From a virus, in the IMG/VR virus record IMGVR_UViG_3300027749_000055, positions 49,660-113,659 of that record: 64,000 bases of DNA. One strand, given 5' to 3'. The stretch's first letter is position 1; every line of letters starts with the position of its first letter. Shown here in pieces: positions 40,193 through 56,062 of this stretch. A model generated the notes under the pieces. It searched no databases and was not told the origin of the DNA. It worked only from the letters and a program-made list of their open reading frames with translations. The position numbers and the translations under genes are program-made.

Positions 40193-40261
40193 TACTTCCT
40201 CCTAGTTGCGATGGCACACTTTACTCACACTCGTCAAGGATATGCAAGGCAAACTTTTGAC

Positions 40262-40290
40262 TTGTGGTTGAGTCTCAACCCCGCTATACT
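40262..40290 (+). promoter_or_regulatory. Promoter with palindromic operator
   Basis: TTGTGG-17-TATACT overlapping GGTTGAG-T-CTCAACC (40266-40280). Confidence 0.55.
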
Positions 40291-40315
40291 TGTTGTAGCC
40301 ACTAAGGAGGAACCA

Positions 40316-41820: not shown

Positions 41821-42104
41821 TGGTTCTGGGTTTCCTTTTGTGTATAGATTTCGTAAGCAACTTTGACGGCGGCTCGCAACTGATTTGCAAGGCGGTTCAC
41901 TTCTTCGGTGACTTCAGAGTCAAGGTTTACCCCAATGCCCAAGTCTTCTAATTGCGAAATCAACGCATTCCACATTTTGATTTGAACATTGACGAGTTCA
42001 ATTGAGGTTCCGAGGGCTTCCTCGTTGATGATTTCCCACTGTCGGTTAATTGGAAGGTCGTAAAGGTTTACGATGGCGGGCTTGTTACGGCGAAATAATT
42101 TCAC
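41817..42104 (-). CDS. Hypothetical protein
   Basis: 95 aa. Confidence 0.55.
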   Translation of the reverse strand: MKLFRRNKPAIVNLYDLPINRQWEIINEEALGTSIELVNVQIKMWNALISQLEDLGIGVNLDSEVTEEVNRLANQLRAAVKVAYEIYTQKETQNQ

Positions 42105-42116
42105 AACTCAACCTTA

Positions 42117-43082
42117 CTATGCTAAAAACAAGCGCAACTGACGTTCTTGCGGTTGTGGGATTTCTTCCACGACCCCTTTGACGGGACGAGTAACGGTAAA
42201 GGCTTGCGCCCGTTCTTTTGGATACGGCAGGATTTTGTTACGGGATTCGAACTCTCGCCGCAGGATTTTTGTTTCCAATTTGTTCGCCCCCAGAACAAGG
42301 GCGTATTTGTGCTTGCTGGGAACGATTATTTTCTCTGCCCCTGCCTGCACTTCTTTGCTCTTTGCCCGCAATGCTGACTCGATTTCACTAGGAATGTTCT
42401 CCCACAACATTCCGGTATCGGAAGTCCAATTTGATTGCCACGAATAGCCAAGTTCTTTGGCATATTTTCTGTAGGCACTGCGCTGACGGAAGAATCGGTC
42501 AGACACAACCTTGCCGGAGTAGGGGTTGATGTGTCGAGTAGTGGTTCCCGACCCCTGCCCCAAGTAATAAAAGTTGCAGGCTTGGTAAATTGTTCCAAGT
42601 TCCCGTGCCATTGGGTCGGAATAGGCAGTGAAAAGACGAAACTGGGTGTTTTTCACTGCCCAGCGGGTCGCCCACATCATAAAAGAACTCGCCAAATTCT
42701 TCGGACTCCACGAAATGCAAGCCCCCCGTGAAATAAGACGTTCGAGTTCCGGCGTTTTTTCACCGAGAAGCGTCGAGAAGGCGTTGGGGAGATTCATCAG
42801 GATTACACCAGCCAACACGGTGTCGTGATACGCCCCGAACCAATGCGTCGTGTATTGCGAGAGGTTGCCGAGCCATTCGTGTCGCTTGATGAACTCCGTG
42901 GCTTCAGCCCGCCCCATAGCGTCGTTAATTGTCCTGAACTCGAAGTCGGCAACGGTCAGATTTTCCACATACTCCCGTGTAAAACCGGACATAACGAGGT
43001 CGTCCTCAGCGTTGCGTAAGCGTATGTCGTATTGCCAGCAATGGTCTTTTTCGTAGACCCGCAGTTCCGCTTCAGAACTCAC
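42117..43082 (-). CDS. Mom-like GNAT DNA adenine-modification protein
   Basis: FIKRHEWLG, RLISRG...PKNLASSF, TAYSDP...GTIYQACNFYYLG, KHKY; start set to a coupled GTG. Confidence 0.75.
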   Translation of the reverse strand: MSSEAELRVYEKDHCWQYDIRLRNAEDDLVMSGFTREYVENLTVADFEFRTINDAMGRAEATEFIKRHEWLGNLSQYTTHWFGAYHDTVLAGVILMNLPNAFSTLLGEKTPELERLISRGACISWSPKNLASSFMMWATRWAVKNTQFRLFTAYSDPMARELGTIYQACNFYYLGQGSGTTTRHINPYSGKVVSDRFFRQRSAYRKYAKELGYSWQSNWTSDTGMLWENIPSEIESALRAKSKEVQAGAEKIIVPSKHKYALVLGANKLETKILRREFESRNKILPYPKERAQAFTVTRPVKGVVEEIPQPQERQLRLFLA

Positions 43083-43465
43083 AGGTCTTCTACAAATTCG
43101 TCGGGCTTGCCCCAACTCCAACCAAACGGTTCTTTGAGCGAAAATAAAACCAAGATTTGCGCTGTCTCGTCTTGATATTCGCTGCCGATTACTTCGATGG
43201 CGGGCACTTTGCCGAAGTGGGCAATTTCCAAAGCGTCCTCAGGAACCTTGTCACCGGAAAAACTGATACCCAACGGTGCGGGTCGAATGGGTAGGTATTG
43301 AAATTCGTCCCAATCGTCCTCGCTCTCCCAGCCAGCCTTAGCCGCAAGATTTTCTGCCGTCTCGGTGTCGTGCGCTTCGCCTAGCGTCACCTCATAAACA
43401 ATGAAACCGTCGGCATTTGTTCGCACGACCACGGCGTTTTCGTTTGAGAGGGTTAGATAGTTCAC
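43079..43465 (-). CDS. Hypothetical protein
   Basis: 128 aa. Confidence 0.55.
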   Translation of the reverse strand: MNYLTLSNENAVVVRTNADGFIVYEVTLGEAHDTETAENLAAKAGWESEDDWDEFQYLPIRPAPLGISFSGDKVPEDALEIAHFGKVPAIEVIGSEYQDETAQILVLFSLKEPFGWSWGKPDEFVEDL

Positions 43466-43482
43466 GGTAGAACAATACCAAA

Positions 43483-44085
43483 CTAGAAGTCTTCAAAAGT
43501 TGAGCCCGCAAGCATTTTTTTGAGGTCACGGTGATAGAGGTTCGCACCCAAGCCCTGCTCGACCTCCCAAATCGGAACCAAGTGTCCGAGCGAGCAATAG
43601 AAGCCCACATTCGGAATCTCCGTGTGCGTCCCAAACTCCTTAAAACGTCGAAACCCGTTGGGGCTAAAGGGTCGCTTGCTCTGTTCCTCGATAAACCAAT
43701 TCCGAACTTGCTCGGTGTTCATTATGTATAACTGTTGCGTTTCGTGAAGGTAGTAGAAAAACAGGTCGGATTTTGTTTTCATAAAGCAACCCAAGGTCAT
43801 ATGGAACTCGCTGCTTACTAACTCGAAGGCAAAGTTGTTCGTCTTGTGACCAATGTAGTCCACCTTGACCTCAATGGTCGTGGACGTAATCTCTCCGTTT
43901 TGATTGCGAACCCAGATGAGGTCAATGTCGTCCTCTTTTTGTTGCTGGACGGTTGCTTCGAGAACGTCCACCGTCGAATCGAAAAAGCGGAGGTATTGGC
44001 GTATGGGTTTCATACCCTCGTTTTCCATTTGCTGCGATTTTTGAAACGTACTCCTACCGTAGTCACGTCCGTCAAGACGAGGCAC
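43483..44085 (-). CDS. PD-(D/E)XK endonuclease-like protein
   Basis: DIDLIW...IEVKVD...TNNFAFELVS...GCFMKTKSD. Confidence 0.7.
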   Translation of the reverse strand: MPRLDGRDYGRSTFQKSQQMENEGMKPIRQYLRFFDSTVDVLEATVQQQKEDDIDLIWVRNQNGEITSTTIEVKVDYIGHKTNNFAFELVSSEFHMTLGCFMKTKSDLFFYYLHETQQLYIMNTEQVRNWFIEEQSKRPFSPNGFRRFKEFGTHTEIPNVGFYCSLGHLVPIWEVEQGLGANLYHRDLKKMLAGSTFEDF

Positions 44086-44380
44086 AGATATCTCCTATTG
44101 CTTGGACAACCTCTTTGGGAACCTTCTTGACCGCCGACATAATCGTCGTGTGGTTGCGTCCGGCGACAAGCCCAATGGTCGAATACGACATACGGCAATG
44201 CTCACGCAGACACGCCCAATAAAGATGACGTGCCTTCATTAGATATGAGTAGCGACGGTCACTGAGAATTTCCTGCTCACTGATTCCCGTCGAAGCGACT
44301 ACAACTGAGAGGACTTTCTGTGCAGTAACTTCTCCGCTCTTCGCCCACTTACGGACAACGGCGTGTGGGTCTGTTTTCAT
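44072..44380 (-). CDS. DnaA C-terminal-like HTH protein
   Basis: ILSDRR...KARH...MSYSTIG...GRNHTTIMSAVKK. Confidence 0.8.
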   Translation of the reverse strand: MKTDPHAVVRKWAKSGEVTAQKVLSVVVASTGISEQEILSDRRYSYLMKARHLYWACLREHCRMSYSTIGLVAGRNHTTIMSAVKKVPKEVVQAIGDICASS

Positions 44381-44609
44381 TCGCCCGACAATAGCAGTGG
44401 TGACAGTGGCGAGTAAAGAGTGTGTTCGAGATGTTCGTGGTTGATAATCGTCACAATTCCTTCTTGCCAGCACCGCTTCTCAATCGCACCGCAGTTCTTC
44501 ACCTTCCACGCAATTTCTTCAAGGGCAAACGGAATCGCCGCTTCGAGGTCGGGTGCTTCAATGTGTAGGTCACGGGTGCGCCCATTCCAACGGGCAGCAA
44601 CACGCCACA

Positions 44610-44858
44610 TCATTTTTTTGCCTTGCTCTCTCGACACAGTTCGAGGCTGGAGTAAATGAATGAAAGTCCAATTACCCAAGCGATATACACGACGGCGAAC
44701 TCCCAGAAGAAGTTGTAGTTGGGGTGTTCGGGGTGGGTCGGATAAACGTTCAACACAATCACAGACAAGAACGTCAGCATTGTCGCTGCAAAAGCGTGAC
44801 GGTGAGTCATTCGAGCCTTGGCATTAAATCGGTGACGGCGGTGTTTCGGTTGTTGCAC
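44610..44858 (-). CDS. Small membrane protein
   Basis: Two TM segments, AAGGAGG RBS. Confidence 0.55.
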   Translation of the reverse strand: MQQPKHRRHRFNAKARMTHRHAFAATMLTFLSVIVLNVYPTHPEHPNYNFFWEFAVVYIAWVIGLSFIYSSLELCRESKAKK

Positions 44859-45050
44859 GGTTCCTCCTTATGAACGCTTCGTGTGCGTTCAATAGTTTTC
44901 CATATCAACGGGGGTTGCGTCAAGTAGCAGGAGAATCACCAATAAACACAAGGGTTTCCAAAGTTTCTCAAATTTCTTAGAAATTGACTTGACTTGTGTA
45001 GGGGGGTTGTGTGTAGAATGGAAATCGTTGGAATACAAGGAGGAAACCAA

Positions 45051-46142
45051 ATGCCAACTAACATCAACCGACCTAGCACTTACGGAACGAGCAACATCTC
45101 TCGTAGCCGTCTTGCGACTATCCGCCGTCAGGACGAAGCACTGCGTCTCCGTCGTAGCGGTATGACTTATGTGGAGATTGCTCGTCAGTTGGGCTTCACA
45201 CCCAACGGCGTTGCTCGTCCGCAATCTGCGGCTGAGGCTGTTCGTGCTGCAGAGCGTCGTCAGCGTATTGCAAACAGCAACACCGCAGTTCAGACCGTTG
45301 CTAACGCTACGGCAATCACCACTGACGGACTCTCGACTCGCACCTTCGGGTTCGAGGCTGAGTTCTTCAACATCACCCCCAGCGTTGCGCTTCGTGCGCT
45401 CGCTGACGTTGGTATCACCGCCTCATTCGAGGGCTACACCCACCGTAACGTTCACATTTGGAAGTGTGTGACCGACGCTTCGGTGACTCGCACGGGCACG
45501 GGTGAGGGTGCGGGCTTGGAGTTGGTTAGCCCCATTCTCCGTGGTCGTGACGGCTTGGAGTGGGCTGCGAAGGCTCTCGACGCTCTCCGTGGTGCTGGCG
45601 CAAAGATAGACCGCACCTGCGGTATGCACGTTCACGTCGGTATGGACGGTCTGACGGGTATGGAGATGATGAAGATTGTGGACACCTACGTCGCCAATCA
45701 AACGAACATCAACCGCATTGTCTCCCGTAGTCGTCACAACAACGACTACTGCCTGCCCTTCAATGAGGTTCACGCACCCTCGACGCAATACCGTCCGAAC
45801 AACTACGAAGCACTCCGTGGTGCGAACACGGCAACTGCCACGACCCGCCTCAGCGGTGTTCTGTCATCTGCGCCTCGCTACCGTGTCGTGAATCTCACGT
45901 CTTACGGCAAGTATGGAACCTTAGAGTTCCGTCAGCACCAAGGCACGTTGAACGGCAAGAAGGGCACGGCGTGGATTGAGTTTTTGCTCGGTCTTGTCGA
46001 GACTTCGGTTGCGTCCAACCCCGTGAACGCCTACGCCTCGGTCTACGAGATGATAACGGCTTTGGGTGTGAGCAACACCACCGCTCGCTATCTCGTTCGT
46101 CGTGAGTCTCAGTTGAATCCCGAACCGATGGTGGTCGCCTAA
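45051..46142 (+). CDS. Phage amidoligase (COOH-NH2 ligase) with N-terminal HTH
   Basis: TFGFEAEF, WKCVTDAS, ELVSPIL, CGMHVHVG, RY..VNL, TLEFRQHQGT; AAGGAGG RBS. Confidence 0.88.
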   Translation: MPTNINRPSTYGTSNISRSRLATIRRQDEALRLRRSGMTYVEIARQLGFTPNGVARPQSAAEAVRAAERRQRIANSNTAVQTVANATAITTDGLSTRTFGFEAEFFNITPSVALRALADVGITASFEGYTHRNVHIWKCVTDASVTRTGTGEGAGLELVSPILRGRDGLEWAAKALDALRGAGAKIDRTCGMHVHVGMDGLTGMEMMKIVDTYVANQTNINRIVSRSRHNNDYCLPFNEVHAPSTQYRPNNYEALRGANTATATTRLSGVLSSAPRYRVVNLTSYGKYGTLEFRQHQGTLNGKKGTAWIEFLLGLVETSVASNPVNAYASVYEMITALGVSNTTARYLVRRESQLNPEPMVVA

Positions 46143-46154
46143 CAGGATTTTCTT

Positions 46155-46195
46155 CCTCACTCGTCAGGCTTAGGTTTGACGAGTGAGGGGTTTAT
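46155..46195 (+). terminator. Hairpin / terminator
   Basis: cctcactcgtca / tgacgagtgagg stem followed by ttt. Confidence 0.5.
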
Positions 46196-46235
46196 CAAGT
46201 ATCATTTATTAAGCACAGTTCATAAGGAGGACATT

Positions 46236-46979
46236 ATGTGTGGTATTGCAGGATTTTGTCTCAGTGCAGACGAACACATCAACGCTCGCAAAGTCAGTAT
46301 GGCATTGCTAAAGCAAATCAAGAGCCGTGGCACGGACGCTACGGGTGCAGCGTGGGTTACGCCCGCCAACAAAGAGAAGGGCACTAGGGCGACCATTGCG
46401 GTCAGCAAAGCCCCCGTTCCCGCAACCTTGTTCGACCCCTACATTGCGAAAATGCCCGCCAAGGCTCGACGTGTGATTCTTCACACTCGATACGCAACGC
46501 AGGGTAGTCCGCTCAACAACTTGAACAATCACCCGATTGTTTCAGGAAAGATTGTGGGCGTTCACAACGGACACCTAAACAATGACGACGACGTGTTCTC
46601 GTATTTTGATGAGTTTCGTAAGGGTCAAGTAGACAGTGAGGCTGCGTTTGCATTGCTCAACCGAACCACGTTCCACCCTACGCAAGTCCTCAACTCCCTA
46701 GAGGGTCGTGCTTCGCTGGCGTGGCTCGACGGTCGGGACAAGCGAGACTTGCAACTCGCCCGTGTCTCCGGCTCACCGCTCGCTATTGGTGGCACTACTA
46801 AAGGTTCGCTGTTTTTCGCCTCAACGCTTCCGCTTCTCGCAGCCGCCTGTGCCGAAGCGAAAGTTCAACTTGCGTGGATTGAAGAACTTGACGAGGGCAC
46901 TTACCTGCGGATTCGTAACGGCGAGATTACCGAGTTCGAGTCAATCGGTGAATCGAAGAAGACGTTGGTGGCTGTATGA
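46236..46979 (+). CDS. Class II glutamine amidotransferase
   Basis: MCGIAG, RGTDATG, HTRYATQG, NNHP, HNG, VDSE. Confidence 0.9.
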   Translation: MCGIAGFCLSADEHINARKVSMALLKQIKSRGTDATGAAWVTPANKEKGTRATIAVSKAPVPATLFDPYIAKMPAKARRVILHTRYATQGSPLNNLNNHPIVSGKIVGVHNGHLNNDDDVFSYFDEFRKGQVDSEAAFALLNRTTFHPTQVLNSLEGRASLAWLDGRDKRDLQLARVSGSPLAIGGTTKGSLFFASTLPLLAAACAEAKVQLAWIEELDEGTYLRIRNGEITEFESIGESKKTLVAV

Positions 46980-47323
46980 CGACCAACCCCTTCGCTGACC
47001 CGCACGGCGCAGAATGGCATATGGAGTGGGGCGGGGAAAAGTTTTTCGCCCCCTCCGCCTTCGACCTGCTTGCTCAGGTTGGTGAGCGTTCGTATGCGCC
47101 CCTCGACCATAAGTATCCGAAGCGTGGCATTGCCTATCGGGTCTTCGTGCAGTATCGAGTTCTGATTGACGACGAGTTGCCGGACGATATTTTCTTGACC
47201 CGTCTGGCAGAGTTCGGGATTATCTCCCTGACCGTCAAGGGCAAACTGCCCAACGACTTGCTGCAAGAAGCCCTGAACTTTGCCGAATCTTGGTATGCGA
47301 ATCCCGACACAAAAGAAATTTGA
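46976..47323 (+). CDS. Hypothetical protein
   Basis: 115 aa, coupled to the GATase gene. Confidence 0.6.
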   Translation: MTTNPFADPHGAEWHMEWGGEKFFAPSAFDLLAQVGERSYAPLDHKYPKRGIAYRVFVQYRVLIDDELPDDIFLTRLAEFGIISLTVKGKLPNDLLQEALNFAESWYANPDTKEI

Positions 47324-47390
47324 AACTTGACTTGACTTAGGTTACTAACCTGTGGTTGAATATATATATCAGACAACAAGGAGGAAACAA

Positions 47391-48272
47391 ATGTTTGGAA
47401 TGAATGAAATTGAAATTAACGAGCAGGCTCGCAAGAAACTTCTCGGCGCATTGACCCAGCGGGCAGCACGACTGAGCGAGGGCGTGGTTGTTACTGAGCG
47501 TCCTATGAATGTCGGTGGCTCATACGACCTCGCTCGCAACCTCGAAGGGGTGGCGGGAATCACCGACATTCAGAACCCGACGTGGCGTAGGAACGACGAG
47601 GGCGACGTTACGTTCTCGTTCGACGCAGTGGCGGTTCGTGAGGCTGTGGCTGAGCGTCGCAACTCTCTAACCGGCGGTGCTAAGCGTTCGGTCACGGTTT
47701 TTCTGAACAAGATTGACGAGGCTATTGAGGCTCGTCGTCAAGCGTTGGAGGTCGTCGCTCAGAGCGAGGCTCTCGGAATCCTGATGAACCGTGCCTACCA
47801 CCGTGGTCAGCAGGCAGGTCTTGACTCGCTGGTCTACGACTACAACTCTCTTGTCCGTGCAATCACGACTCTGAAGGTACACGAAGCAGTTACGGTTCAG
47901 ACCTACAACGGCGTTGATGTTCGTGTCGCAGATTCTCACATTGGCTCATTGTGCGTCAAACCCTACATTGACGAGGACGGGGTTCACGCAGTGTGGGAGG
48001 CTCAGGCTGAGAGCGACAGCGACTTCTCAAACTCGCTAACTCGTCTGCACCCTATGTGCCAGCGTTACGTCGAGGGATTCAACGGCTTGCTTGGTTCGTT
48101 TGATTCGGCAGAAGAGGCGATTTTTGAGATTCGCCACGCCTTCATCTCGGCGGGTCACACGGCTCTCCGTGTGGTTGAAGCGGAAATCAACGACTTACTG
48201 AACAAGATTTTTGAGCAGTTCGGTATCAGCGTTGCAGTCGAAGTTCGTCAGCCCGTTATGGCTGGCGTTTAG
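47391..48272 (+). CDS. Hypothetical protein
   Basis: AAGGAGG RBS and TTGACTTGACTT promoter element shared with 44984. Confidence 0.65.
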   Translation: MFGMNEIEINEQARKKLLGALTQRAARLSEGVVVTERPMNVGGSYDLARNLEGVAGITDIQNPTWRRNDEGDVTFSFDAVAVREAVAERRNSLTGGAKRSVTVFLNKIDEAIEARRQALEVVAQSEALGILMNRAYHRGQQAGLDSLVYDYNSLVRAITTLKVHEAVTVQTYNGVDVRVADSHIGSLCVKPYIDEDGVHAVWEAQAESDSDFSNSLTRLHPMCQRYVEGFNGLLGSFDSAEEAIFEIRHAFISAGHTALRVVEAEINDLLNKIFEQFGISVAVEVRQPVMAGV

Positions 48273-48294
48273 GAACAGGAAGGAGGAAACCAAG

Positions 48295-48612
48295 ATGAAT
48301 AAGCACACCAACAATGTCGTGGCGATTATCAGCGACGCTCTAACGAGCGTTGTCGAGGGTAACGACGCTCAGGCGGTCAAGCACTTGTCTATTGCTATCA
48401 AAGCACTGACGGGCACGAAGAACCACACAACCAGCGTGGCTAAGACAACCAACGGACGACGTGGCCCAAAGCCCGCTCTGAACGTTGAGCAAGTCGCAAC
48501 GCTGCGGAATCGTCTCGCCAGCGGTGAGCGTGTCGTGGACGTGGCTAGGGCTTTGGGCATTTCAACCCAAACGATTTATCGCCACGTGCGTCTCGCCAAG
48601 ACGAACGCCTAG
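48295..48612 (+). CDS. Protein with C-terminal resolvase-type HTH
   Basis: RRGPKPALNVEQV...VARALGISTQTIYRH. Confidence 0.75.
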   Translation: MNKHTNNVVAIISDALTSVVEGNDAQAVKHLSIAIKALTGTKNHTTSVAKTTNGRRGPKPALNVEQVATLRNRLASGERVVDVARALGISTQTIYRHVRLAKTNA

Positions 48613-48698
48613 GAGGGCTTTAGGGGTGGCTGCGATACTTGATTGTGTCTCAGCCACCCGCTAAAGTATCAACTACGGTTGAACATAAGGAGGAAACC

Positions 48699-48995
48699 GT
48701 GAACAAGAAATTTGTAGTGACTTTAGAAATTGAGTTTGACCCCACCGAGCGTGACGGCACAGACAGGATTATCGGCAACCCGTGGTCTTGGAACTTCTCG
48801 CACCTTCTAAGTGCGGGTAGTGTCCACGTCCTCGCCAGCGTTGAGAGCGCATACGAGGCTTGCTGCGAATCAGCAATCGAGTGGTTCAACACTCCCTACG
48901 ACCAGCGTTACATCAAGATTTTTGATTCTTGTCATCACGACGAGACGTGCCACAACTACATTCCAATCGAGGAAGACGAAGATGGCAAGCAATAG
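48699..48995 (+). CDS. Hypothetical protein
   Basis: AAGGAGG RBS, GTG start. Confidence 0.6.
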   Translation: MNKKFVVTLEIEFDPTERDGTDRIIGNPWSWNFSHLLSAGSVHVLASVESAYEACCESAIEWFNTPYDQRYIKIFDSCHHDETCHNYIPIEEDEDGKQ

Positions 48996-49912
48996 CGAAG
49001 CCCGTAAGCGTCGGGAAGAAGCGGCTAGGTCGCAGTGCGACCACCCAGAAGTCGGACTTATTGCAAATGACGAAGGCGAGTTGAACGTGATTGAGTTCAC
49101 CTTCTGCCCCCTGTGTGGAGTGGAACTATGAGTCAAACATTTGGTTTTTGGACATTATGGGCATTTATCCTTGTTGCTACCGTTTTGCTTGTTAGGTGGG
49201 GTGAGCGATGAACGCCGAAGAACTAAAGTTGAACAACCTAGAAACCGAAGTTGAGTGCGATGTAGACCACGACACCGTTCAGGGTAGCCATTTGGAAAAA
49301 GATGGGTGGACTGATGTGGACACCAACTACTGCCCTAAGTGTGGAGAGGAACTATGACCCCCGACGAACGCCAAGCCCTACGAGAGAAGCACCGTGTCGG
49401 TCAGAACGAAGCCGACGACCAGTGCCAAGCGTGTTTCACTATCCCCTACCCCTGCGATGTAATCAAGGTACTGGACTGGGCAGAGCAAGCCTACAACGAT
49501 GGCTGGAAAGCCTGCGACTTCCAATGGAGAGAACTATGAACCCCGAAGAACTAAAGTTCAGCGACCTCAAAACTGAAGTTGAACACTCAGAAATCCGTGC
49601 AAGTGACACTTCTGACGTAATGCCTACAAATGAGTGCAGGCACGTTCAGTCTCGTATGCTGAAAGTGTTTCGTGGATACCAATTTATTCCCAATAAGTTC
49701 TGCCCTGAGTGTGGAGAGGAACTGTGAAGAGCCCAAGCGGTCTTTGGTCGGTAACGTCGGACGGTAAGCACGTCCACATTTACTTCGCCAAGCGTCTGCC
49801 CCGCAAGACAAAAAAGTGGGCAAGCCTCATTTTCGAGGGTGCTGGAGATAAGGCAACACAGTTTGCAGTCCTTAGCGAGCGTCTGAGCAACCAATTAAAG
49901 GCGCAAGCGTAA
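48982..49912 (+). other. Array of coupled mini-genes (48982-49131, 49128-49211, 49208-49357, 49354-49539, 49536-49727, 49724-49912); three end in CPxCGxEL
   Basis: ATGA/GTGA overlaps; repeated junction GGAGA(G)GAACT(A/G)TGA. Confidence 0.65.
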
Positions 49913-49951
49913 AAACGAGCGGAGGCACGGCAAACAGAGTAAAGTTTGGAA

Positions 49952-50683
49952 ATGCCCACGACCTACCTGCTTACCAACGGAAACCGTGAACTTGCCAAAG
50001 ACGGGATTTTCACTTGGACGCTTCCGGCTCTCAATGCCCGCCTGAGTAACGGCAAGAACTTTTTGACTTGCCCCAAAGCGGGTATCTGCGCCAACCTCTG
50101 CTACGCCCGTTCGGGCACTTACAATTTCTCGAATGTCAAGCGGGCGCACCTCGCCAAATTGGAAATGGTGCTGGACGACCTTGCTGGCTGGGAAGCCCGA
50201 ATGACCGAGGAACTGAAGGCAAAGCGGTATCGGGGCGGTAAATATGTGCGTATCCACGACGCAGGGGATTTTTTTTCCGTTCCTTACTTTGAGGCGTGGG
50301 TAAGGATTTCACTAGCAACCCCAGATGTAACTTTCTACGCTTACACCAAAGAAGTTTCCCTAGTGAAATCTTTTGACCTGCCCTCAAATATGGTTATTGT
50401 TTTCTCAATGGGTGGCAAAGAGGACAGCCTGATTGACGTTGAGGTAGACCGCCACGCCGACGTTTTTCCGACGTTGGAGGCTCTCGAAGACGCTGGTTAC
50501 ACCGACCAAGGCGACAGCGACCTTTTGGCAATCAAAATGTCAAACAACAAGGTGGGGATTGTCGTGAACAACATTCCGCACTTGAAAAAGAAGCAGGGCG
50601 TGGCAACATTTTCTTCTCTACAACGTGAGCGTGACGAGCGAGTTAGTGAAATCCGTTCGGCGGGCGAAAATTTCCAAAACTAG
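49952..50683 (+). CDS. Phage GP88-family protein
   Basis: WTLPA...TCPKAGICANLCYA...VRIHDAGDFFS...YAYTK. Confidence 0.75.
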   Translation: MPTTYLLTNGNRELAKDGIFTWTLPALNARLSNGKNFLTCPKAGICANLCYARSGTYNFSNVKRAHLAKLEMVLDDLAGWEARMTEELKAKRYRGGKYVRIHDAGDFFSVPYFEAWVRISLATPDVTFYAYTKEVSLVKSFDLPSNMVIVFSMGGKEDSLIDVEVDRHADVFPTLEALEDAGYTDQGDSDLLAIKMSNNKVGIVVNNIPHLKKKQGVATFSSLQRERDERVSEIRSAGENFQN

Positions 50684-50701
50684 GGTATAGTTGAGGCTGA
50701 A

Positions 50702-50797
50702 ATGAAGCATTTTCTCTATGTCCTCAAACTCAGCGGATTGGGTGCTGTGGCTGGATTCTTTGTTGCCACGTTGGTCGCCTTCTTCCGTCGGAAGTAA
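50702..50797 (+). CDS. Small membrane peptide
   Basis: 31 aa hydrophobic, coupled to the terminase gene. Confidence 0.5.
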   Translation: MKHFLYVLKLSGLGAVAGFFVATLVAFFRRK

Positions 50798-51780
50798 TGA
50801 ACCCCACCGTCAAAAAACTACTTGAATTGCCTCTTGACGAGCGCAAAATCCTTCTGAACTCCCTAAAGCCTGAGGAATTAGCGATTGTCTACAAAGAAAT
50901 TGAGGCTATTGAGAAAGCCCCTATGCGCCATTGGTATTGCACCCGTGACGTATGCAACGGCAAGCCCCACGCCGGATTTCATTGGTGCGACCACCCTATA
51001 GATAGTAAAAACCACACGCCGTTCTGCAAACACTCTCGAACTCCCCAACGTCCGCCAGCCGTGAACACACAAGACCCGTGGCTTGTGTGGTTTTTTTCCG
51101 GTGGTCGTGGAACCGGCAAGACCCGTGCGGGCGCAGAGTGGATTTTGGACTTGGTTTGGAATCAGGGTTATCGCCGTATCGCCCTCGTAGGTCGAACTCC
51201 TGCCGACGTTCGTGACGTTATGATTTTCGGAGACTCAGGGATTATGAACTGCTCTGACCCGCACCCGAAGCCCCATCACGAACCTTCAAAGCGACGGCTT
51301 ATTTGGGAGAACGGGGCGCAAGCCTTCACCTACTCGGCTGCAGCCCCAAGTCAGTTACGAGGCCCACAGCACGACGCAGCGTGGGCAGACGAGTTAGCCG
51401 CTTGGGACGACGCAAACAAGGGTGACACTTTAGATACGTCTTGGAACAACCTTATGCTTGGTTTACGTCTTGGCACGAATCCAAAGTGTCTCGTCACCAC
51501 CACCCCAAAGCGGGTCAAGTTGGTTCGGCAACTAATGGATAGGCGCACCACGGTAATCACCAACGGCACGACCTACGACAACCTCGACAACCTCGCACCG
51601 TCTTTCCGTGAACAGGTTTTGACCTCGTATGAAGGCACTCGAATCGGGCAACAGGAACTTGACGGTGTTCTTTTGACGGACGTGGAAGGTGCGCTCTGGT
51701 CGCTCGAAATGATTGACCGCCTCCGTGGGATTTTCTTTTCGGGCAATCGAGACACGGCTGGCGAATTGGAATCGGCGTAA
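50797..51780 (+). CDS. terL: Terminase large subunit, ATPase half
   Basis: GGRGTGKTRAGAEW, LRGPQHDAAWADELAAW, VTTTP, TYDN..NL. Confidence 0.9.
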   Translation: MNPTVKKLLELPLDERKILLNSLKPEELAIVYKEIEAIEKAPMRHWYCTRDVCNGKPHAGFHWCDHPIDSKNHTPFCKHSRTPQRPPAVNTQDPWLVWFFSGGRGTGKTRAGAEWILDLVWNQGYRRIALVGRTPADVRDVMIFGDSGIMNCSDPHPKPHHEPSKRRLIWENGAQAFTYSAAAPSQLRGPQHDAAWADELAAWDDANKGDTLDTSWNNLMLGLRLGTNPKCLVTTTPKRVKLVRQLMDRRTTVITNGTTYDNLDNLAPSFREQVLTSYEGTRIGQQELDGVLLTDVEGALWSLEMIDRLRGIFFSGNRDTAGELESA

Positions 51781-52412
51781 TGATTCAGGTAGACCCGCAG
51801 GATTTTCTTTCGATAGTCGTCGGCGTAGACCCAGCCCTGACGAGCAATGAAGACAGCGACGAGACGGGCATTATCGTCGCTGCTTCCGGCCCGCACCAGC
51901 CCTCGACGTGCAACATTGACCACTGCACCGTCCACGCCTACGTCCTACAAGACGCTACGTTGCCCCGTCACGTCAAGTCCACGCCCGAACGATGGGGTCG
52001 TAGGGTTGTGGAAGTTTTTGACGAATGGAACGCTGGGCGTGTCGTGGTCGAACACAACGCCGGACGTGACCTTCTGAAGTCCGTGCTTTTGACTATCCGC
52101 CCGACGTTGCCCGTCGAACTGCCTAATGCCTCGCTGAGCAAGGTCGCCCGTGCTGAACCAATCGTGTCGCTTTACGAACAAGGTCGAGTTCACCACGTAG
52201 GCAAGCCCGAAGACTTTGCGATTTTGGAAGACCAGATGACGACGTGGGTTCCAAACGCCAGCCGTCGAAACTCCCCTGACCGCCTCGACGCTTTGGTCTG
52301 GGCAGTATCAGCACTCGATATCAACGCCATTTCGTCCGGCAGACGACGCTGGCAAGATATGGGTGAGATTACGCCCGTAAACTTTCCGCAAGGGAACGGC
52401 TGGGCGGTCTAG
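51780..52412 (+). CDS. terL: Terminase large subunit, RNase H-like nuclease half
   Basis: IVVGVDPA...SDETGI, VVVEHNAG, KVARAEP...YEQG, SPDRLDALVWA. Confidence 0.9.
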   Translation: MIQVDPQDFLSIVVGVDPALTSNEDSDETGIIVAASGPHQPSTCNIDHCTVHAYVLQDATLPRHVKSTPERWGRRVVEVFDEWNAGRVVVEHNAGRDLLKSVLLTIRPTLPVELPNASLSKVARAEPIVSLYEQGRVHHVGKPEDFAILEDQMTTWVPNASRRNSPDRLDALVWAVSALDINAISSGRRRWQDMGEITPVNFPQGNGWAV

Positions 52413-52420
52413 GATTTTCT

Positions 52421-52981
52421 TTAGCGGAACCAGCGTCGCCACACAGGGGCAAACTTGCGCTCGGCAAAGAACTTGGCTTCGCTAATCGAGTAGCGAATGT
52501 CGTCAATGGCTCGGTGAGCCACGACACGATTTTCTTTGCGTCGCTTGGCGTAGCCCTTGGCGTCAGCCCGCTTGTAGAGTTCGGTCATAGAGGACACGTC
52601 TACATTGCGATAGGACAGAAGCCCGATTACGTCGGGCATATGAACCTGCAAGAAGTTCCTGTCGAACTGAACCGACGAACCGCCGAGCGGGATTTTCTTT
52701 AGGTCGCTCGAAGGCGCAAGAACTCTGAGCCACGCCACAATTTCTGCGGACACGTCAGCCAACGGTTTGCCTTTACCGGCACGAAGGCTGTCGAGCAAGC
52801 CCGACTTAGTGTGCATTTCGACAATGAAGTCGTCAAGGTCGTCAAGGTCTGCGCCACTGATGAGCGTCTCGTAGGTCGCAATCTCGTTGAGGTTGTCGTC
52901 GGTAGCGACCACGGCAATCTCCAACAGATTTTCTTTGGCGGGGTCAAGCCCCGTCGTCTCGGTGTCTATCCAAACAATCAT
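52421..52981 (-). CDS. orn: Oligoribonuclease
   Basis: VWIDTETTGLD, MHTKSGL, SVQFDRNFL...YRNVDVSS, HRAIDDI. Confidence 0.9.
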   Translation of the reverse strand: MIVWIDTETTGLDPAKENLLEIAVVATDDNLNEIATYETLISGADLDDLDDFIVEMHTKSGLLDSLRAGKGKPLADVSAEIVAWLRVLAPSSDLKKIPLGGSSVQFDRNFLQVHMPDVIGLLSYRNVDVSSMTELYKRADAKGYAKRRKENRVVAHRAIDDIRYSISEAKFFAERKFAPVWRRWFR

Positions 52982-52991
52982 CAAGCCCTCC

Positions 52992-53366
52992 TTATGACTC
53001 AACCACAGTGTAGTCGGTGGGTGTGACAGGAGCAACTACCGGCTCAGGATTTTCTTTTGCGATGTAGCGGACGTATATCGTGAACGTGTTGTTGTTGTCT
53101 CGAACCAACCGTGTCTGGTATGGCGAATCCTGCTTTGAGAACTTCTCGCCCTGTCGCAAATTCAGCAAGAGCCACAGAGCCTTGCGCTCATACGAGCGGT
53201 TCTTTGCCCCTTCTTGCCACACGAACCACGTCTCAGGATTTTCTTTGAGTTGTTGGCGACGGAGTTCAACCATAGTTCGGTTCTCAGCCCGTGGGCTGTA
53301 AGCCTTTGCGGGCGGGTCACGCCTCACCATTAGCAAGCGTTGGTCGGTTGTCCGTAGGTCAAGCAT
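52992..53366 (-). CDS. Hypothetical protein
   Basis: 124 aa. Confidence 0.5.
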   Translation of the reverse strand: MLDLRTTDQRLLMVRRDPPAKAYSPRAENRTMVELRRQQLKENPETWFVWQEGAKNRSYERKALWLLLNLRQGEKFSKQDSPYQTRLVRDNNNTFTIYVRYIAKENPEPVVAPVTPTDYTVVES

Positions 53367-53683
53367 TAGTTTGCCTCAACGTAGTCAATGTCCCGAACAG
53401 CGTCAAGGATTTTCTTTTCGGCTTCGTTCATCTCGGCGCAGAAGCGTGAGTAGCGACCGTCGAAGTCCTCGTCGTCCTCGAACAAGGTCAAGTTCACGCC
53501 AACCGCTTGTTCAAGTTCACGCAGATTTTCTTCGCTGTAGAAGTCAGCCTTCCAATCGCCAAAACCCCACAGCGTAATCGCAGTCAAAGCCAACGTGCTG
53601 TAGCGAACGGGCTTGCGCCCAATCGAGCCGTCCATTTTCCTGAACGTAGATTCGAACACATCAGTCGTGTGTAGTGCAGTCAT
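53366..53683 (-). CDS. Hypothetical protein
   Basis: AAGGAGG RBS. Confidence 0.6.
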   Translation of the reverse strand: MTALHTTDVFESTFRKMDGSIGRKPVRYSTLALTAITLWGFGDWKADFYSEENLRELEQAVGVNLTLFEDDEDFDGRYSRFCAEMNEAEKKILDAVRDIDYVEAN

Positions 53684-53806
53684 TAGTTCCTCCTTTTAGA
53701 ACTACCATCAGTGTAGTGCGGTTGAGTCACAAATGCAAATCTCAATTCAAGATTTTCTTTTGCGCTCGTTGCCACGTCGAAAGTATGGCAAACGGGTGTG
53801 ACACTG

Positions 53807-53995
53807 CTACTCATCAAGCGTGTGACGACCTCGACAAGCCTTACGGCTATTGGCTTTTTTCTTGTCGGGCAGGCGAACCGCCACGCCACCACGCCACTCG
53901 GTCAGCGAGCCACCGTTGGCAAAGTGCCTCTTACGTCGCATACCTCTTAGGTCTGCAAGTTGGTCGCTCAGGGTCGGTTTCTTGGTCTTGGTCAT
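53807..53995 (-). CDS. Small basic hypothetical protein
   Basis: 62 aa, ends DKKKANSRKACRG. Confidence 0.55.
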   Translation of the reverse strand: MTKTKKPTLSDQLADLRGMRRKRHFANGGSLTEWRGGVAVRLPDKKKANSRKACRGRHTLDE

Positions 53996-54084
53996 TGAGA
54001 CAGTATGCCAGACCTATCTGATACTTGACAAACATTTTCTTTTGATACTTGACGAGGGTTGTGTCGAGCAACTAGCCTTGTCGT

Positions 54085-54429
54085 ATGGACATACCCTTTG
54101 AACCTTGTTGCAAAGATTTTCTTTCGTGGCTATGCGCCGACCCAGTTGAGCGCAGTTTGAGTGCGTGGCACTCGCAGGACTGCCCGACGTTGGCGGGTAG
54201 CACGATACCGACCACACGTTTTCGGGTGCTAGGCAAAGACAGCGACTACGAATTCCGCATTGAGCAAGTCGGCGGTGTCGTGACGGTTTATCTGTGCGAT
54301 TACGGCTTTTACAACGTGCTGGTCTTGGGTCGTTTTGACGAGGCAACGCCAGCGTTCTTGTTTGCAATGGACTACTGCGCCCTAATGCGCCGGACGGGAT
54401 TTTCTTTGACCGAATTGAGCGCAGTCTGA
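54085..54429 (+). CDS. Hypothetical protein
   Basis: 114 aa, TTGAC promoter elements upstream. Confidence 0.5.
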   Translation: MDIPFEPCCKDFLSWLCADPVERSLSAWHSQDCPTLAGSTIPTTRFRVLGKDSDYEFRIEQVGGVVTVYLCDYGFYNVLVLGRFDEATPAFLFAMDYCALMRRTGFSLTELSAV

Positions 54430-54686
54430 TGAGCCAACTAAGTGTCGAACTCAACCGTTTGCCACAAATGGAGTTGCAGGTTTATCTCGCCTGTCTAAAC
54501 CGCCCGCTTACGGTTCGTGAGATTGCCGAACCGTTGGATTACGACAGGCTCACAACGCTTGGGTTTTTGACGACCCTTCGAGAGCGTGGTCTACTTATCG
54601 TCGTGGGCGCAAGTGGCGAGCCAAGATTTTCTTCGGTGGCGGACGACGACTGCCGTGCGCTGGTGGCGCAGAAGGTCTGGCGTTAG
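54429..54686 (+). CDS. Winged-HTH protein (TrmB-like)
   Basis: ELQVYLACL..PLTVREIAE...LTTLRERGLL. Confidence 0.65.
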   Translation: MSQLSVELNRLPQMELQVYLACLNRPLTVREIAEPLDYDRLTTLGFLTTLRERGLLIVVGASGEPRFSSVADDDCRALVAQKVWR

Positions 54687-55003
54687 TTGTAGTCCGCTGG
54701 CGCAATCATCACCACGTTAGTCGTGACCAAAGCAAAGAACTCAGCCCATACGCCGACAACATTTTCTTTTGTGGCGTGGAAGTCCAGCGCACCGACGAAA
54801 CTGTGCCAATCGCTCGCCGTCTCGAACCGCAGGTCGGCAGACGACGTGCCAATCGCCACGGGATTTTCTTCGTCAATGACCCAACGGCGCAACTGCGTCT
54901 CGTAGCGTTCGAGTGACGACACGGGCGCACCCTCAACCGCCGACAACATTTTCTTTGCCGTTGCCAACGGCACGGTTTCGAGGTTGATAGACCTAATCGT
55001 CAC
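54683..55003 (-). CDS. Hypothetical protein
   Basis: Start set to GTG at 55003. Confidence 0.45.
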   Translation of the reverse strand: MTIRSINLETVPLATAKKMLSAVEGAPVSSLERYETQLRRWVIDEENPVAIGTSSADLRFETASDWHSFVGALDFHATKENVVGVWAEFFALVTTNVVMIAPADYN

Positions 55004-55475
55004 TGTCCGTAGCCTGTAGGTATTGGTCGAGATTTTCCATAGTGTCGTGGCAGAACTCACGGAGTCGAGGCAACGCATAGTCCGCTTCGGTGTAGTGCTG
55101 ACGCTCAGGGTCAAATGCCCACGTCTCATTTTTTGACGCTTCGTAGGTGAGCAAGACGGACTTTGCCAACGCTTTGACCGCACCCTCGACAACCGCAACC
55201 GGACAACACAGGTGCAGGACGATTCGCTCATCAAACGGATTATCTTTTGTCTCCAAGTGCCAGACGTAGAAGCCCATTTCCTCAATGATTGGCTCGTCAA
55301 TCGTCGCTACGACCAGCACGGCATTTTCTTTGCCTAGTTCGTCAGCCGTGAACGGCACTTTGAGCCAGACCTCGTAGGGCGTGGTAAACAGCGTGGCATT
55401 GCGCCCTATCAACCGAACCCGCTTACGCTTTGGCTTAGTGGTGACGTAGGGCAGGTCTGGCGATTGGTCGGTCAT
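54993..55475 (-). CDS. Hypothetical protein
   Basis: 160 aa. Confidence 0.55.
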   Translation of the reverse strand: MTDQSPDLPYVTTKPKRKRVRLIGRNATLFTTPYEVWLKVPFTADELGKENAVLVVATIDEPIIEEMGFYVWHLETKDNPFDERIVLHLCCPVAVVEGAVKALAKSVLLTYEASKNETWAFDPERQHYTEADYALPRLREFCHDTMENLDQYLQATDSDD

Positions 55476-55479
55476 AGGT

Positions 55480-56060
55480 TCAGCACCTTAGCCGTTCAGC
55501 ACAACCCCCGTCAAGGCAATGGCGGGTAGCCGCCAAAGTTTGCAGCCTCCAAACCCTGGGAGGCCTCCCCCCTTGGTCTGGGCAGCCGAAAGGCCCTGAC
55601 CTCTGGCACTTGGAACTTTGTTTGAAGCCGTCAGAACGCCACACAGCGTGTCTGAAAATGCCAATGTTGCTCGATTGCGCTCGAATCCGTGCGCCAGCGA
55701 CGAGCCAGCCGCTTGACGCTCGACGGCTTGACGGCTCGACGGCGTGAGACGAAACGACGTGGTTTGTCTCACGGTTTGGAAAATGCTGGCAGCAGCGGTG
55801 CAGCCAAGTCACCGTGCAACTTGCAACAACGACACAGACCGTGCAACTTGCAACGTGCCCGCAGACGTGGCTAATTCGACGTTGAGCGGACGCTGGGGGT
55901 TTGTGCGAGCCAGCGGACACAACGCCACGGCAACGCCACAGACAGCCACACAGGGCGGCAATCGTCTATGCCTGAATCCTGCCTTGCAGGGTCGAGCCGT
56001 ATGGTCGGTTTGGTGATTTCACCAAAGACCCCTAGAGGCAGTTTGGTGATTTCACCAGAG
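55480..56060. repeat. Apparently non-coding region with direct, tandem and inverted repeats
   Basis: accgtgcaacttgcaac x2 (55811, 55838); gct(t/c)gac(g) x4 (55711-55743); gtttggtgatttcacca x2 (56008, 56041). Confidence 0.65.
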
Positions 56061-56062
56061 GC

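What the first reader, a model, noticed from the sequence alone, without database searches (positions are those of the whole stretch)
51730..55330. Strictly polar array of ATTTTCTT across 3.6 kb, overriding coding constraints
Seen at 51730, 51802, 52414, 52529, 52692, 52928, 53049, 53238, 53409, 53525, 53752, 54034, 54116, 54399, 54626, 54761, 54863, 54948, 55323, usually preceded by G. All are on +, and I saw no reverse copy; chance expectation is under 0.1 copy. It occurs in + genes, - genes and intergenic DNA, and a 19-bp extension (cgccgacaacattttcttt at 54751 and 54938) is read in different frames, so the signal is in the DNA. The array ends at the non-coding repeat region 55.5-56.1 kb. 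Inference: oriented protein-binding sites, such as a packaging-initiation zone, origin iterons, stoperator-like sites or translocase guides.
Basis: partly seen in the sequence, partly recalled or inferred. Interest (0 to 1): 0.72.

Follow-up and report, generated by a model that had tools for sequence, protein, structure and literature searches.

The report
One-way DNA signal array in phage
An uncultured lake phage keeps about twenty copies of one 11-letter DNA word, all pointing the same way, written across genes and gaps beside a gene-free block. Selection preserves them, and they most resemble the oriented signals that tame a host DNA-end nuclease, though the reader protein is unknown.

Summary
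ATTTTCTT occurs 31:0 (+:-) in the window against 2.6 expected, and 32:2 in the 113.7-kb phage contig, where it is the commonest octamer. The real site is R-S-ATTTTCTT-Y. It has 20 exact copies, all on +, all within 9.2 kb, and 18 of them (plus one near copy) within 3.6 kb. The array stops 145 bp before a 587-bp non-coding block, and no copy lies in the next 15 kb to the right. Degenerate + copies thin out over about 17 kb to the left.

The signal is in the DNA. It sits on + whatever the gene strand or reading frame, and it forces atypical residues in a conserved exonuclease. In a relative about 9% diverged, 15 of 16 aligned copies are unchanged (1 change in 128 motif columns). A non-homologous gene cassette in that relative carries its own copies.

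Spacing is irregular and unphased, but no two copies are closer than 72 bp. Relatives at 68-87% TerL identity lack the array.

The best reading (about 0.36) is a set of Chi-like signals met by an end-tracking enzyme moving leftward from the non-coding block, as in phages LLS and MD8. The rivals are strand-specific nick sites, oriented docking sites for a phage protein, and translocase guides. Host and reader are unknown. This scan has reported comparable polar word arrays in other phages.

The parts
51728..55331 (+). Dense polar array: 19 copies of ATTTTCTT, of which 18 are exact R-S-ATTTTCTT-Y and one is CGATTTTCTTT. The 8-mers start at 51730, 51802, 52414, 52529, 52692, 52928, 53049, 53238, 53409, 53525, 53752, 54034, 54116, 54399, 54626, 54761, 54863, 54948 and 55323.
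   Evidence: spacing 72-612 bp with no periodicity; 15 of 16 aligned copies intact in L068
46145..46155 (+). Outlying exact site GGATTTTCTTC, intergenic, just after the amidoligase gene
50606..50616 (+). Outlying exact site ACATTTTCTTC, inside the GP88-family gene
34252..50717 (+). Zone of degenerate (one-mismatch) + strand copies left of the array: 10 in about 17 kb, against 6 in the other ~92 kb and 7 on the - strand of the whole genome
   Evidence: genome 83911-100376
55476..56062 (.). Non-coding block that bounds the array on the right. It holds GCTYGACG x4 in tandem, GTGCAACTTGCAAC x2, three same-strand GCCACA (DnaA-box-like) words, a GGGAGGCCTCCC palindrome and two TTTGGTGA-TT-TCACCAAA palindromes. 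It is the candidate place where a DNA end or an origin forms.
   Evidence: (all indels against L068 fall here); no Rfam family
50797..51780 (+). Terminase large subunit, ATPase part. Motif 51730 lies in its variable C-terminal tail (GIFFS).
51780..52412 (+). Terminase large subunit, nuclease part (separate ORF with ATGA overlap). Motif 51802 lies at its N-terminus (QDFLS). There is a 612-bp motif-free gap over the conserved domain.
52421..52981 (-). Oligoribonuclease-like DEDD exonuclease with 3 motif copies read antisense as KEN, KKI and KEN, at positions where homologues have TGS/AGS, RRA and KGQ
52992..53366 (-). 124-aa gene with 2 copies. Its N-terminal 100 codons are replaced in L068 by an unrelated 564-bp cassette that carries 2 copies and 1 near copy of its own. 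The left joint abuts motif 53049.
53366..53683 (-). 105-aa gene with 2 copies
53807..53995 (-). 62-aa basic protein gene. Motif copies 53752 and 54034 lie in the flanking intergenic DNA. Copy 54034 sits between two TGATACTTGAC direct repeats in a divergent promoter region.
54085..54429 (+). 114-aa gene with 2 copies read in the sense direction
   Evidence: substitutions 7, 4, 15 by codon position
54429..54686 (+). 85-aa winged-helix (TrmB/IclR-like, below the Pfam cut-offs) protein with 1 copy; a candidate site-binding protein under the docking-site rival
54683..55003 (-). 106-aa gene with 3 copies, including the exact 19-bp duplicate read in two frames
54993..55475 (-). 160-aa gene with 1 copy; the last gene before the non-coding block

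Best explanation
The array is a set of orientation-dependent signals read one at a time by an enzyme tracking along the DNA from right to left. The most likely form is Chi-like sites for a host end-resecting helicase-nuclease (RecBCD, AddAB or AdnAB type).

Shown: about 20 copies of R-S-ATTTTCTT-Y lie on one strand only. They pile up against the left edge of a 587-bp non-coding block, thin out leftward and are absent to the right. Selection maintains them regardless of the genes they overlie.

Inferred: a double-strand end forms in or next to that block, as a terminase cut, the injected tip of the genome or the tail of a rolling circle. At such an end the + strand finishes 3' at the end. A nuclease loading there moves leftward along the 3'-ended strand and meets every site from its 3' side, which is the active orientation of Chi. 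Many sites within the first few kb would make recognition almost certain. Degradation would then stop and recombination or concatemer formation would be promoted, before or alongside the phage's own Gam-like end-binding protein.
For: The pattern matches published Chi-rich phages closely. [quoted passage not shown] LLS has 20:3 with terminal clustering. In both, the active orientation is on the strand whose 3' end lies at the entered end (PMC12315714).

Here ATTTTCTT is the top octamer at 32:2. The exact 11-mer is 20:0 and confined to 9.2 kb that ends 145 bp from the non-coding block, with none in the next 15 kb to the right. One-mismatch + copies are about 9 times denser in the 17 kb to the left than elsewhere.

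Orientation is independent of gene strand and frame, which excludes promoter, terminator, mRNA and stoperator logic. There is no helical phasing or period, so the sites act singly.

Purifying selection is clear. Motif columns show 1 change in 128 against 8.7% elsewhere (P about 1e-4). Third-codon and non-coding columns show 1 in 60 against 11.5% (P = 0.006). An unrelated replacement cassette has its own copies. The only cassette swap seen has a joint abutting a site, which is compatible with a recombination hotspot.
Against: Neither the host nor the reading enzyme is known, and no host genome could be reached, so identity with a host Chi is untested. All known Chi sequences are G-rich words of 5-8 nt. 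This site is T-rich and carries information over 11-13 nt.

Six relatives and two other freshwater phages lack any enrichment. A host-determined signal would more likely be shared.

The phage encodes a Mu Gam-like end binder and a Sak4-like AAA_24 protein. Published Chi-rich lambdoids typically lack such modules.

No Chi is known for actinobacterial AdnAB (PMC5314763).

The physical genome end is not mapped. A second large G-run-rich non-coding region lies at the contig junction, 8.6 kb to the right, and could be the real end. Sites are never closer than 72 bp (P = 5e-4), which Chi logic does not require.
Confidence: 0.36

Rival explanations
1. The sites are oriented docking sites on duplex DNA for a lineage-specific phage DNA-binding protein, for example the 85-aa winged-helix protein encoded inside the array. 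The bound proteins would form a one-way roadblock to replication or transcription, or coat the early region.
For: The site carries information over 11-13 bp, with degenerate flanks that evolve only within their classes (R to R, S to S). This is typical of protein-DNA recognition. The array and most genes under it are specific to this lineage. An HTH gene lies inside the array. Sites are never closer than 72 bp, as a footprint would require.
Against: Orientation ignores the direction of transcription, unlike stoperators. Most sites lie inside genes at a cost to the proteins, not in promoters. There is no phasing or cooperative layout. The 17-kb one-sided tail of degenerate copies and the sharp right edge are not expected of a local regulator. 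The HTH match is below the Pfam cut-offs.
Confidence: 0.25
2. The sites are recognition sites of a phage-encoded nickase, so that packaged DNA carries strand-specific single-strand interruptions as in phages T5, phiKMV, tf and Rembedalsseter.
For: Those phages carry an asymmetric 9-mer with degenerate positions (TACTRTGMC / WACTRTGAC). It occurs 13-14 times, every copy on one strand, mostly inside genes, and denser toward one side of the genome (PMC3517423; PMC11780129). Here there is also an asymmetric word with degenerate flanks, strictly on one strand, blind to coding and concentrated on one side.
Against: Known nick motifs are spaced by kilobases, not about 190 bp. They are shared across whole phage groups (61 genomes), whereas relatives here lack the word. 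No nuclease was recognised among the proteins of the region. Nicks cannot be seen in an assembly.
Confidence: 0.2
3. The sites are guide or loading sites for a DNA translocase or the packaging motor (KOPS, SRS or TRS type). They would steer it rightward to the non-coding block, or modulate terminase as it packages the DNA downstream of terL.
For: These are polar 8-11-mers whose 5'-to-3' direction points at the non-coding block, with density rising toward it. The array begins inside terL.
Against: KOPS-type guides converge on their target from both sides, whereas this array is one-sided. No FtsK, SpoIIIE or TraB-like protein was seen among about 50 proteins scanned (the scan was not exhaustive). 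Known pac and cos sites span a few hundred bp at most. Terminase motors are not known to read sequence while translocating.
Confidence: 0.08
4. The array is a by-product of coding or composition: a repeated peptide, codon bias or recent duplication.
For: Copies outside the array mostly lie antisense in - genes as K/E/Q-E-N or K-K-I/M. They are only 2.5-3 times above a strand-specific Markov expectation. In AT-rich giant-virus contigs the same 10-mer does arise from a 66-bp coding repeat.
Against: Within the array the word is on + in genes of both strands, in three frames and in intergenic DNA. Flanks beyond about 13 bp are unrelated. It replaces conserved residues in the exonuclease. It is conserved at synonymous and non-coding positions.
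Confidence: 0.01

Closest known systems
Terminally clustered Chi arrays of phages without a Rec module (E. coli phage LLS, Pseudomonas phage MD8; Genome Res 2025, PMC12315714)
   Same: The word is the commonest octamer of the genome. There are about 20-32 copies, nearly all in one orientation, piled up toward one place and thinning away from it. Copies lie in genes and gaps alike. The orientation is the one active for an enzyme entering from the clustered side.
   Different: The word here is T-rich and 11-13 nt long, not a G-rich 5-8-mer. The host and its Chi are unknown. The phage has Mu Gam-like and Sak4-like genes. The density is higher (1 per 190 bp). The physical end is not mapped. Close relatives lack the array.
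Nick-associated motifs of phages tf, Rembedalsseter, phiKMV and T5 (PMC3517423, PMC11780129)
   Same: An asymmetric 9-mer-class consensus with degenerate positions. Every copy is on one strand, mostly intragenic, and unevenly concentrated toward one side of the genome. Function is unknown.
   Different: Those phages have 4-14 sites spaced by kilobases and shared by dozens of related phages. Here there are 19 sites in 3.6 kb, restricted to one lineage. Nicking here is untested.
Stoperators of Cluster A mycobacteriophages (L5 gp71 type); comparison from my own knowledge, not re-read here
   Same: About 20-35 copies of an asymmetric 13-14-bp site in an actinobacteriophage. The sites are lineage-specific and occur within transcribed regions.
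   Different: Stoperators are dispersed over the genome, mostly between genes, and flip with the direction of transcription. These sites are local, mostly intragenic and keep one orientation across four changes of gene direction.
FtsK KOPS, SpoIIIE SRS and Streptomyces TraB TRS/clt 8-mers; comparison from my own knowledge
   Same: Polar 8-mers read by a tracking motor, with density rising toward the target locus.
   Different: Those guides converge from both sides or sit in a short clt locus, and they need a cognate FtsK-like motor. None was found here, and the array is one-sided.

Membership tests
Phage Chi cluster (LLS/MD8 class) | Short asymmetric word is the top-ranked or near top-ranked octamer of the phage genome | tested here: met
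   ATTTTCTT has 32 copies and ranks first among the octamers of the contig
Phage Chi cluster (LLS/MD8 class) | Nearly all copies in one orientation | tested here: met
   31:0 in the window, 32:2 in the genome, 20:0 for the 11-mer
Phage Chi cluster (LLS/MD8 class) | Copies cluster next to a physical DNA end, with their 3' side facing it | tested here: inconclusive
   The cluster abuts the non-coding block 55476-56062 with the right polarity. No read data exist to show an end there, and another non-coding region lies at the contig junction.
Phage Chi cluster (LLS/MD8 class) | The word is the host's Chi, recognised by its RecBCD, AddAB or AdnAB enzyme | not testable with these tools
   The host is unknown (probably a freshwater actinobacterium). 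AdnAB has no known Chi.
Phage Chi cluster (LLS/MD8 class) | The phage lacks its own recombination and anti-RecBCD module | tested here: not met
   Phage_Mu_Gam (E = 1.4e-15) and AAA_24/Sak4-like (E = 1.8e-23) genes are present
Nick-associated motif (tf/T5/phiKMV type) | Asymmetric consensus found on one strand only | tested here: met
Nick-associated motif (tf/T5/phiKMV type) | Single-strand breaks at the motif in virion DNA | not testable with these tools
   Only assembled sequence is available
Nick-associated motif (tf/T5/phiKMV type) | Motif shared by the related phage group | tested here: not met
   It is present in the 91%-identical contig L068 but absent from relatives at 68-87% TerL identity
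Nick-associated motif (tf/T5/phiKMV type) | Kilobase-scale spacing (about 4-14 sites per genome) | tested here: not met
   19 sites in 3.6 kb, mean spacing 200 bp
Stoperators (Cluster A mycobacteriophages) | Site orientation follows the direction of transcription | tested here: not met
   Sites stay on + across + and - genes whose coding status is supported by substitution patterns
Stoperators (Cluster A mycobacteriophages) | Sites dispersed through the genome, mainly in short intergenic gaps | tested here: not met
   All exact sites lie within 9.2 kb, and 14 of the 19 array copies lie inside genes whose coding status is supported
Stoperators (Cluster A mycobacteriophages) | A cognate immunity repressor binds the site | not tested
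   Only a weak HTH candidate (54429-54686, below the Pfam cut-offs); no integrase was looked for systematically
Replication-origin iterons | Repeats of 17-22 bp packed within a few hundred bp, usually phased, next to the initiator | tested here: not met
   11-13-bp sites spaced 72-612 bp over 3.6 kb, with no phasing (Rayleigh R at 10.5 bp = 0.03)
Translocase guides (KOPS/SRS/TRS) | Polar words converge on the target from both sides | tested here: not met
   There are no - strand copies to the right of the block
Translocase guides (KOPS/SRS/TRS) | A cognate FtsK/SpoIIIE/TraB-type motor is encoded | tested here: inconclusive
   None was found among about 50 proteins scanned, but the proteome was not fully scanned

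The most novel reading that the evidence does not exclude
R-S-ATTTTCTT-Y is the Chi-equivalent of a freshwater actinobacterium's end-resecting helicase-nuclease (AdnAB or RecBCD), captured and amplified by this phage. That would be the first Chi-type signal known for Actinobacteria. It would also be an unusually long, T-rich one, readable directly from a phage genome.
Probability: 0.2. Interest if true: 0.85.

Novelty: new variant of a known kind. Interest (0 to 1): 0.6.

Why it matters
Strand-polar word arrays are one of the few ways a raw genome reveals which way a DNA-tracking machine travels and where it starts. This array points to a specific 587-bp block as the place where a DNA end or a one-way process begins in an uncultured 114-kb actinophage. 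It also supplies an exact, testable recognition sequence. If a host nuclease reads it, the array would bear on whether actinobacterial end-resection enzymes have a Chi at all (PMC5314763 calls AdnAB putatively Chi-independent). If a phage nickase or binding protein reads it, this would be the densest such array described, and the first in this phage group.

Tried and rejected
**Transcription and RNA signals**
- Promoter or terminator reading. Consensus scans found no excess (2 promoter-like against 1.8 expected; 5 terminator-like against 7.5). The orientation ignores gene direction.
- RNA families and tRNAs. None in 51000-57000 or in the window.

**Layout**
- Helical phasing or periodic spacing. 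None.

**Relatives**
- Same array in relatives. Not found in IMG/VR relatives by the exonuclease or by TerL, in four whole relative contigs, in 15 more distantly related metagenome loci out of 16, or in phages DSL-LC01 and MW462191. Only L068 shares it.
- A different polar array in relatives. None apart from coding repeats.
- Proteins of the array region (160 aa and 105 aa). No relatives in viral contigs. The protein atlas was uninformative.
- Non-coding block against relatives. No similarity.

**Same word in unrelated phages**
There the 10-mer comes from a 66-bp coding repeat (ELLKENPDKINW). This test of 'host-determined versus phage-determined' is therefore inconclusive.

**Host**
The one genome-contig scan, made with the lysin, returned only a Prevotellaceae MAG at 30% identity.
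- The nearest cellular exonuclease homologues are in Microbacteriaceae at about 39% identity. Cultured-phage TerL hits are mostly Microbacterium, Arthrobacter and Gordonia phages at about 36-40%; the nearest single records (42-52%) are uncultured or non-actinobacterial phages.

**Tool availability**
The other five contigs that carry the identical exonuclease could not be fetched.

Full report
**Where the window lies.** The window is the last 64 kb (49660-113659) of a 113,659-bp IMG/VR virus contig rated 91% complete by CheckV. The contig ends overlap by 145 bp apart from a G9/G10 run, so the genome is circular or terminally repeated in the assembly. Nearly all genes lie on the - strand. The main + island (with two smaller + patches) spans window 45018-52412 and ends with the large terminase.

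The phage also encodes:
- a Mu-type portal, a Mom-like protein and a DnaA_C-type HTH protein;
- amidoligase, GATase and GGACT genes of the base-hypermodification kind;
- outside the window, a Mu Gam-like protein, a Sak4-like AAA_24 ATPase, an SNF2/HARP helicase and a ParB_N protein.

The nearest cellular homologues of its Orn-like exonuclease are from Microbacteriaceae. Many of the cultured-phage TerL hits come from actinophages such as Microbacterium and Arthrobacter phages. An actinobacterial host is therefore likely but unproven.

**The observation.** The window has 31 copies on + and none on -, against 2.55 expected (maximum 8 in 100 shuffles). The genome has 32:2, and the word is its commonest octamer.

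A position table of the 19 array copies shows that the site is longer than the octamer:
- S at -1 in 19 of 19 copies (G in 15);
- R at -2 in 18 of 19;
- A at -3 in 12 of 19, and never T;
- C at -4 in 12 of 19;
- Y at +1 in 19 of 19 (T in 16).

The exact pattern R-S-ATTTTCTT-Y occurs 20 times on + and never on -. All copies lie between window 46145 and 55331, and 18 of them lie in 51728-55331. A nineteenth array copy, CGATTTTCTTT, misses by one base.

Most octamer copies elsewhere lack these flanks; +1 is G in 7 of 12. Their excess over a strand-specific Markov model is only about 2.5-3-fold (13 observed against 4-5 expected), while the reverse word is at expectation. The phenomenon is therefore local and one-sided.

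It has a tail. One-mismatch + copies number 10 in the 17 kb left of the array, against 6 in the remaining ~92 kb and 7 on the whole - strand. To the right there is nothing for about 15 kb.

**The signal is in the DNA, not in the proteins.** A gene map was tested against the substitution pattern between the window and a close relative. Across the array the gene direction changes four times:
- TerL on +;
- the exonuclease and three small genes on -;
- two genes on + (54085-54429 and 54429-54686, with third-position excess 7/4/15 and 3/8/18);
- two genes on -;
- then the non-coding block 55476-56062, which holds all 11 indels.

The word stays on + throughout. It is read as sense I-F-F/D-F-L/G-F-S in + genes and as antisense K-E-N, E-E-N or K-K-I/M in - genes, in different frames. 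Five copies lie outside the genes as called; one of these, 54116, falls within the longer 54085-54429 ORF.

In the exonuclease the three sites encode KEN, KKI and KEN, exactly where five phage homologues have T/A/E-G-S, R-R-A and K-G-Q. One change replaces an alanine that is otherwise invariant before PLGG. The exact 19-bp repeat at 54751 and 54938 is read in two frames of one gene.

**Selection.** The metagenome contig L068 (4,847 bp) aligns to window 52052-53059 at 95% identity and to 53381-56635 at 90.5%.
- Of 16 aligned copies, 15 are unchanged. Motif columns show 1 difference in 128, against 8.7% in other columns (P about 1e-4).
- Counting only third-codon and non-coding columns gives 1 in 60 against 11.5% (P = 0.006).
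- Flank changes stay within the degenerate classes (A/G at -2, G/C at -1), and +1 never changes.
- Between the two aligned blocks, 321 bp of the window are replaced in L068 by 564 unrelated bp encoding a different protein. That cassette has two perfect copies and one near copy of its own, all on the same strand. The left joint of the swap falls three bases after motif 53049.

**Layout.** Spacings run from 72 to 612 bp (mean 200). There is no period and no helical phasing (R = 0.03 at 10.5 bp; the best R over all periods is below the random mean). The sites are more evenly spread than chance, with P(minimum gap >= 72 bp) = 5e-4. The one long gap lies over the conserved TerL nuclease domain.

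**Distribution among phages.** The word is not enriched in any of the following:
- relatives found through TerL at 68-87% identity, or through the exonuclease;
- four whole relative contigs, with counts of 3:4, 2:2, 3:4 and 0:4;
- a further 15 metagenome loci;
- phages DSL-LC01 and MW462191.

These genomes also have no other dense polar array. The genes under the array and the non-coding block are themselves lineage-specific.

Two IMG/VR pattern scans for the same array were swamped by AT-rich giant-virus contigs, where the 10-mer is part of a 66-bp coding repeat. Whether unrelated phages of the same host carry the word therefore stays open.

**What it most likely is.** The orientation is fixed relative to the molecule rather than to the genes. 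The sites act singly, have a sharp edge at a non-coding block and decay to one side only. These features point to a process that runs along the DNA in one direction from, or to, that block.

The best-documented match is the terminally clustered Chi array. In phage MD8 the host Chi is the commonest octamer, with 32 copies all in one orientation, concentrated near the right end. LLS has 20:3. The active orientation is the word on the strand whose 3' end lies at the entered end (PMC12315714). The geometry here is the same if a double-strand end forms at 55.5-56.1 kb. I therefore rank a Chi-like function first.

The objections are serious:
- the word is T-rich and 11-13 nt long;
- the host and its enzyme are unknown, and AdnAB has no known Chi (PMC5314763);
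- the relatives lack the word;
- the phage has Gam-like and Sak4-like genes, unlike the published Chi-rich class;
- the real genome end may be the G-run-rich region at the contig junction.

**Rivals.** Strand-specific nick motifs share several features (tf: 14 copies of TACTRTGMC, all on the top strand and denser toward one end; Rembedalsseter: 13 copies of WACTRTGAC; PMC3517423 and PMC11780129). They too have one-strand exclusivity, degenerate positions, blindness to coding and one-sided concentration. They are spaced by kilobases, however, and are shared across whole phage groups.

A docking-site array for a lineage-specific protein fits the long degenerate consensus, the minimum spacing and the lineage restriction. 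It does not fit the indifference to transcription direction, the intragenic cost or the 17-kb degenerate tail. A translocase or packaging guide fits the polarity but not the one-sidedness.

Iterons, pac sites, promoters, terminators and coding repeats are rejected for the reasons given above.

**Earlier notes of this scan.** Comparable polar word arrays have been reported in other phage genomes: a GTCCGATAA array over an early operon (e1-5733988) and several Chi-like octamers. The non-coding block was noted as a candidate origin or packaging site (e1-5977157). I used these as leads only.

**Limits.** Statements about stoperators, KOPS/TRS and DnaA-box contacts rest on my own knowledge rather than on papers read here.

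Noticed in passing
whole contig, e.g. window 50363, 50646, 63641, 63861; relatives G002-G004: A second, non-polar word is hugely enriched. TAGTGAAAT has 35 copies (19 on +, 16 on -) against 0.7 expected, mostly inside genes, with none in the ATTTTCTT array. Relatives carry T[AG][GC]TGAAA 70-100 times (for example TGCTGAAA at 57:12 and 58:18), mostly in the sense strand in one codon phase (xxT-GCT-GAA-A). Function unknown. ATTTCAC resembles the P1 parS box A heptamer (from memory), and the phage has a ParB_N protein.
   Followed up: partly
window 50797-52412: The large terminase is split into an ATPase ORF and a nuclease ORF with an ATGA overlap. The same split occurs in six relatives (L013-L018), so it is a conserved feature of the group rather than an assembly error.
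   Followed up: partly
window 53060-53380 vs L068 (reverse complement) 1009-1572: Gene-cassette swap between two strains that are 91% identical. A 124-aa protein and an unrelated ~190-aa protein share only a C-terminal tail (KENPE.VVA.V..P), with the joint directly after a motif copy.
   Followed up: partly
window 55476-56062: The non-coding block holds a GCTYGACG x4 tandem, GTGCAACTTGCAAC x2 and three same-strand GCCACA words (AACGCCACA x2, ACAGCCACA) that resemble DnaA-box cores. The phage encodes a 102-aa DnaA domain-IV-like protein (44072-44380). Two TTTGGTGA-TT-TCACCAAA palindromes follow the stop codon of the upstream gene.
   Followed up: partly
window 63510-64000 plus contig 1-305: An ~800-bp non-coding region at the contig junction is rich in G7-G10 runs flanked by CTAG and TAGTGAAAT. 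The contig ends overlap by 145 bp with a G9/G10 difference. It is the alternative candidate for the packaging site or genome end; an earlier scan note (not checked here) places a small-terminase-like gene just beyond it.
   Followed up: no
window 40211-40717, 42117-42992, 45018-46979, 49946-50683: A gene set typical of DNA base hypermodification: GGACT, Mom-like, Amidoligase_2 with an N-terminal HTH, a class-II GATase, and a GP88-family protein with a Cys cluster just upstream of terL.
   Followed up: no
contig 25402-27506 and 16986-19475 (outside the window): Genes for a Sak4-like AAA_24 ATPase, a Mu Gam-like end-binding protein and an SNF2 helicase with a HARP domain. Together these form a phage recombination and end-protection set that bears on the Chi-like reading.
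   Followed up: partly
window 53996-54084: A divergent promoter region between the 62-aa gene (-) and the 114-aa/HTH operon (+). It contains two TGATACTTGAC direct repeats flanking motif copy 54034, and may be the operator of the HTH protein.
   Followed up: no
loci L253, L130, L289, L148 (IMG/VR, GC 19-30%): AT-rich giant-virus-like contigs carry 20-58 polar copies of the same 10-mer. It lies within a 66-bp coding repeat (about 22 aa, ...ELLKENPDKINW...). This is a coincidence and a caution for word-based searches.
   Followed up: yes
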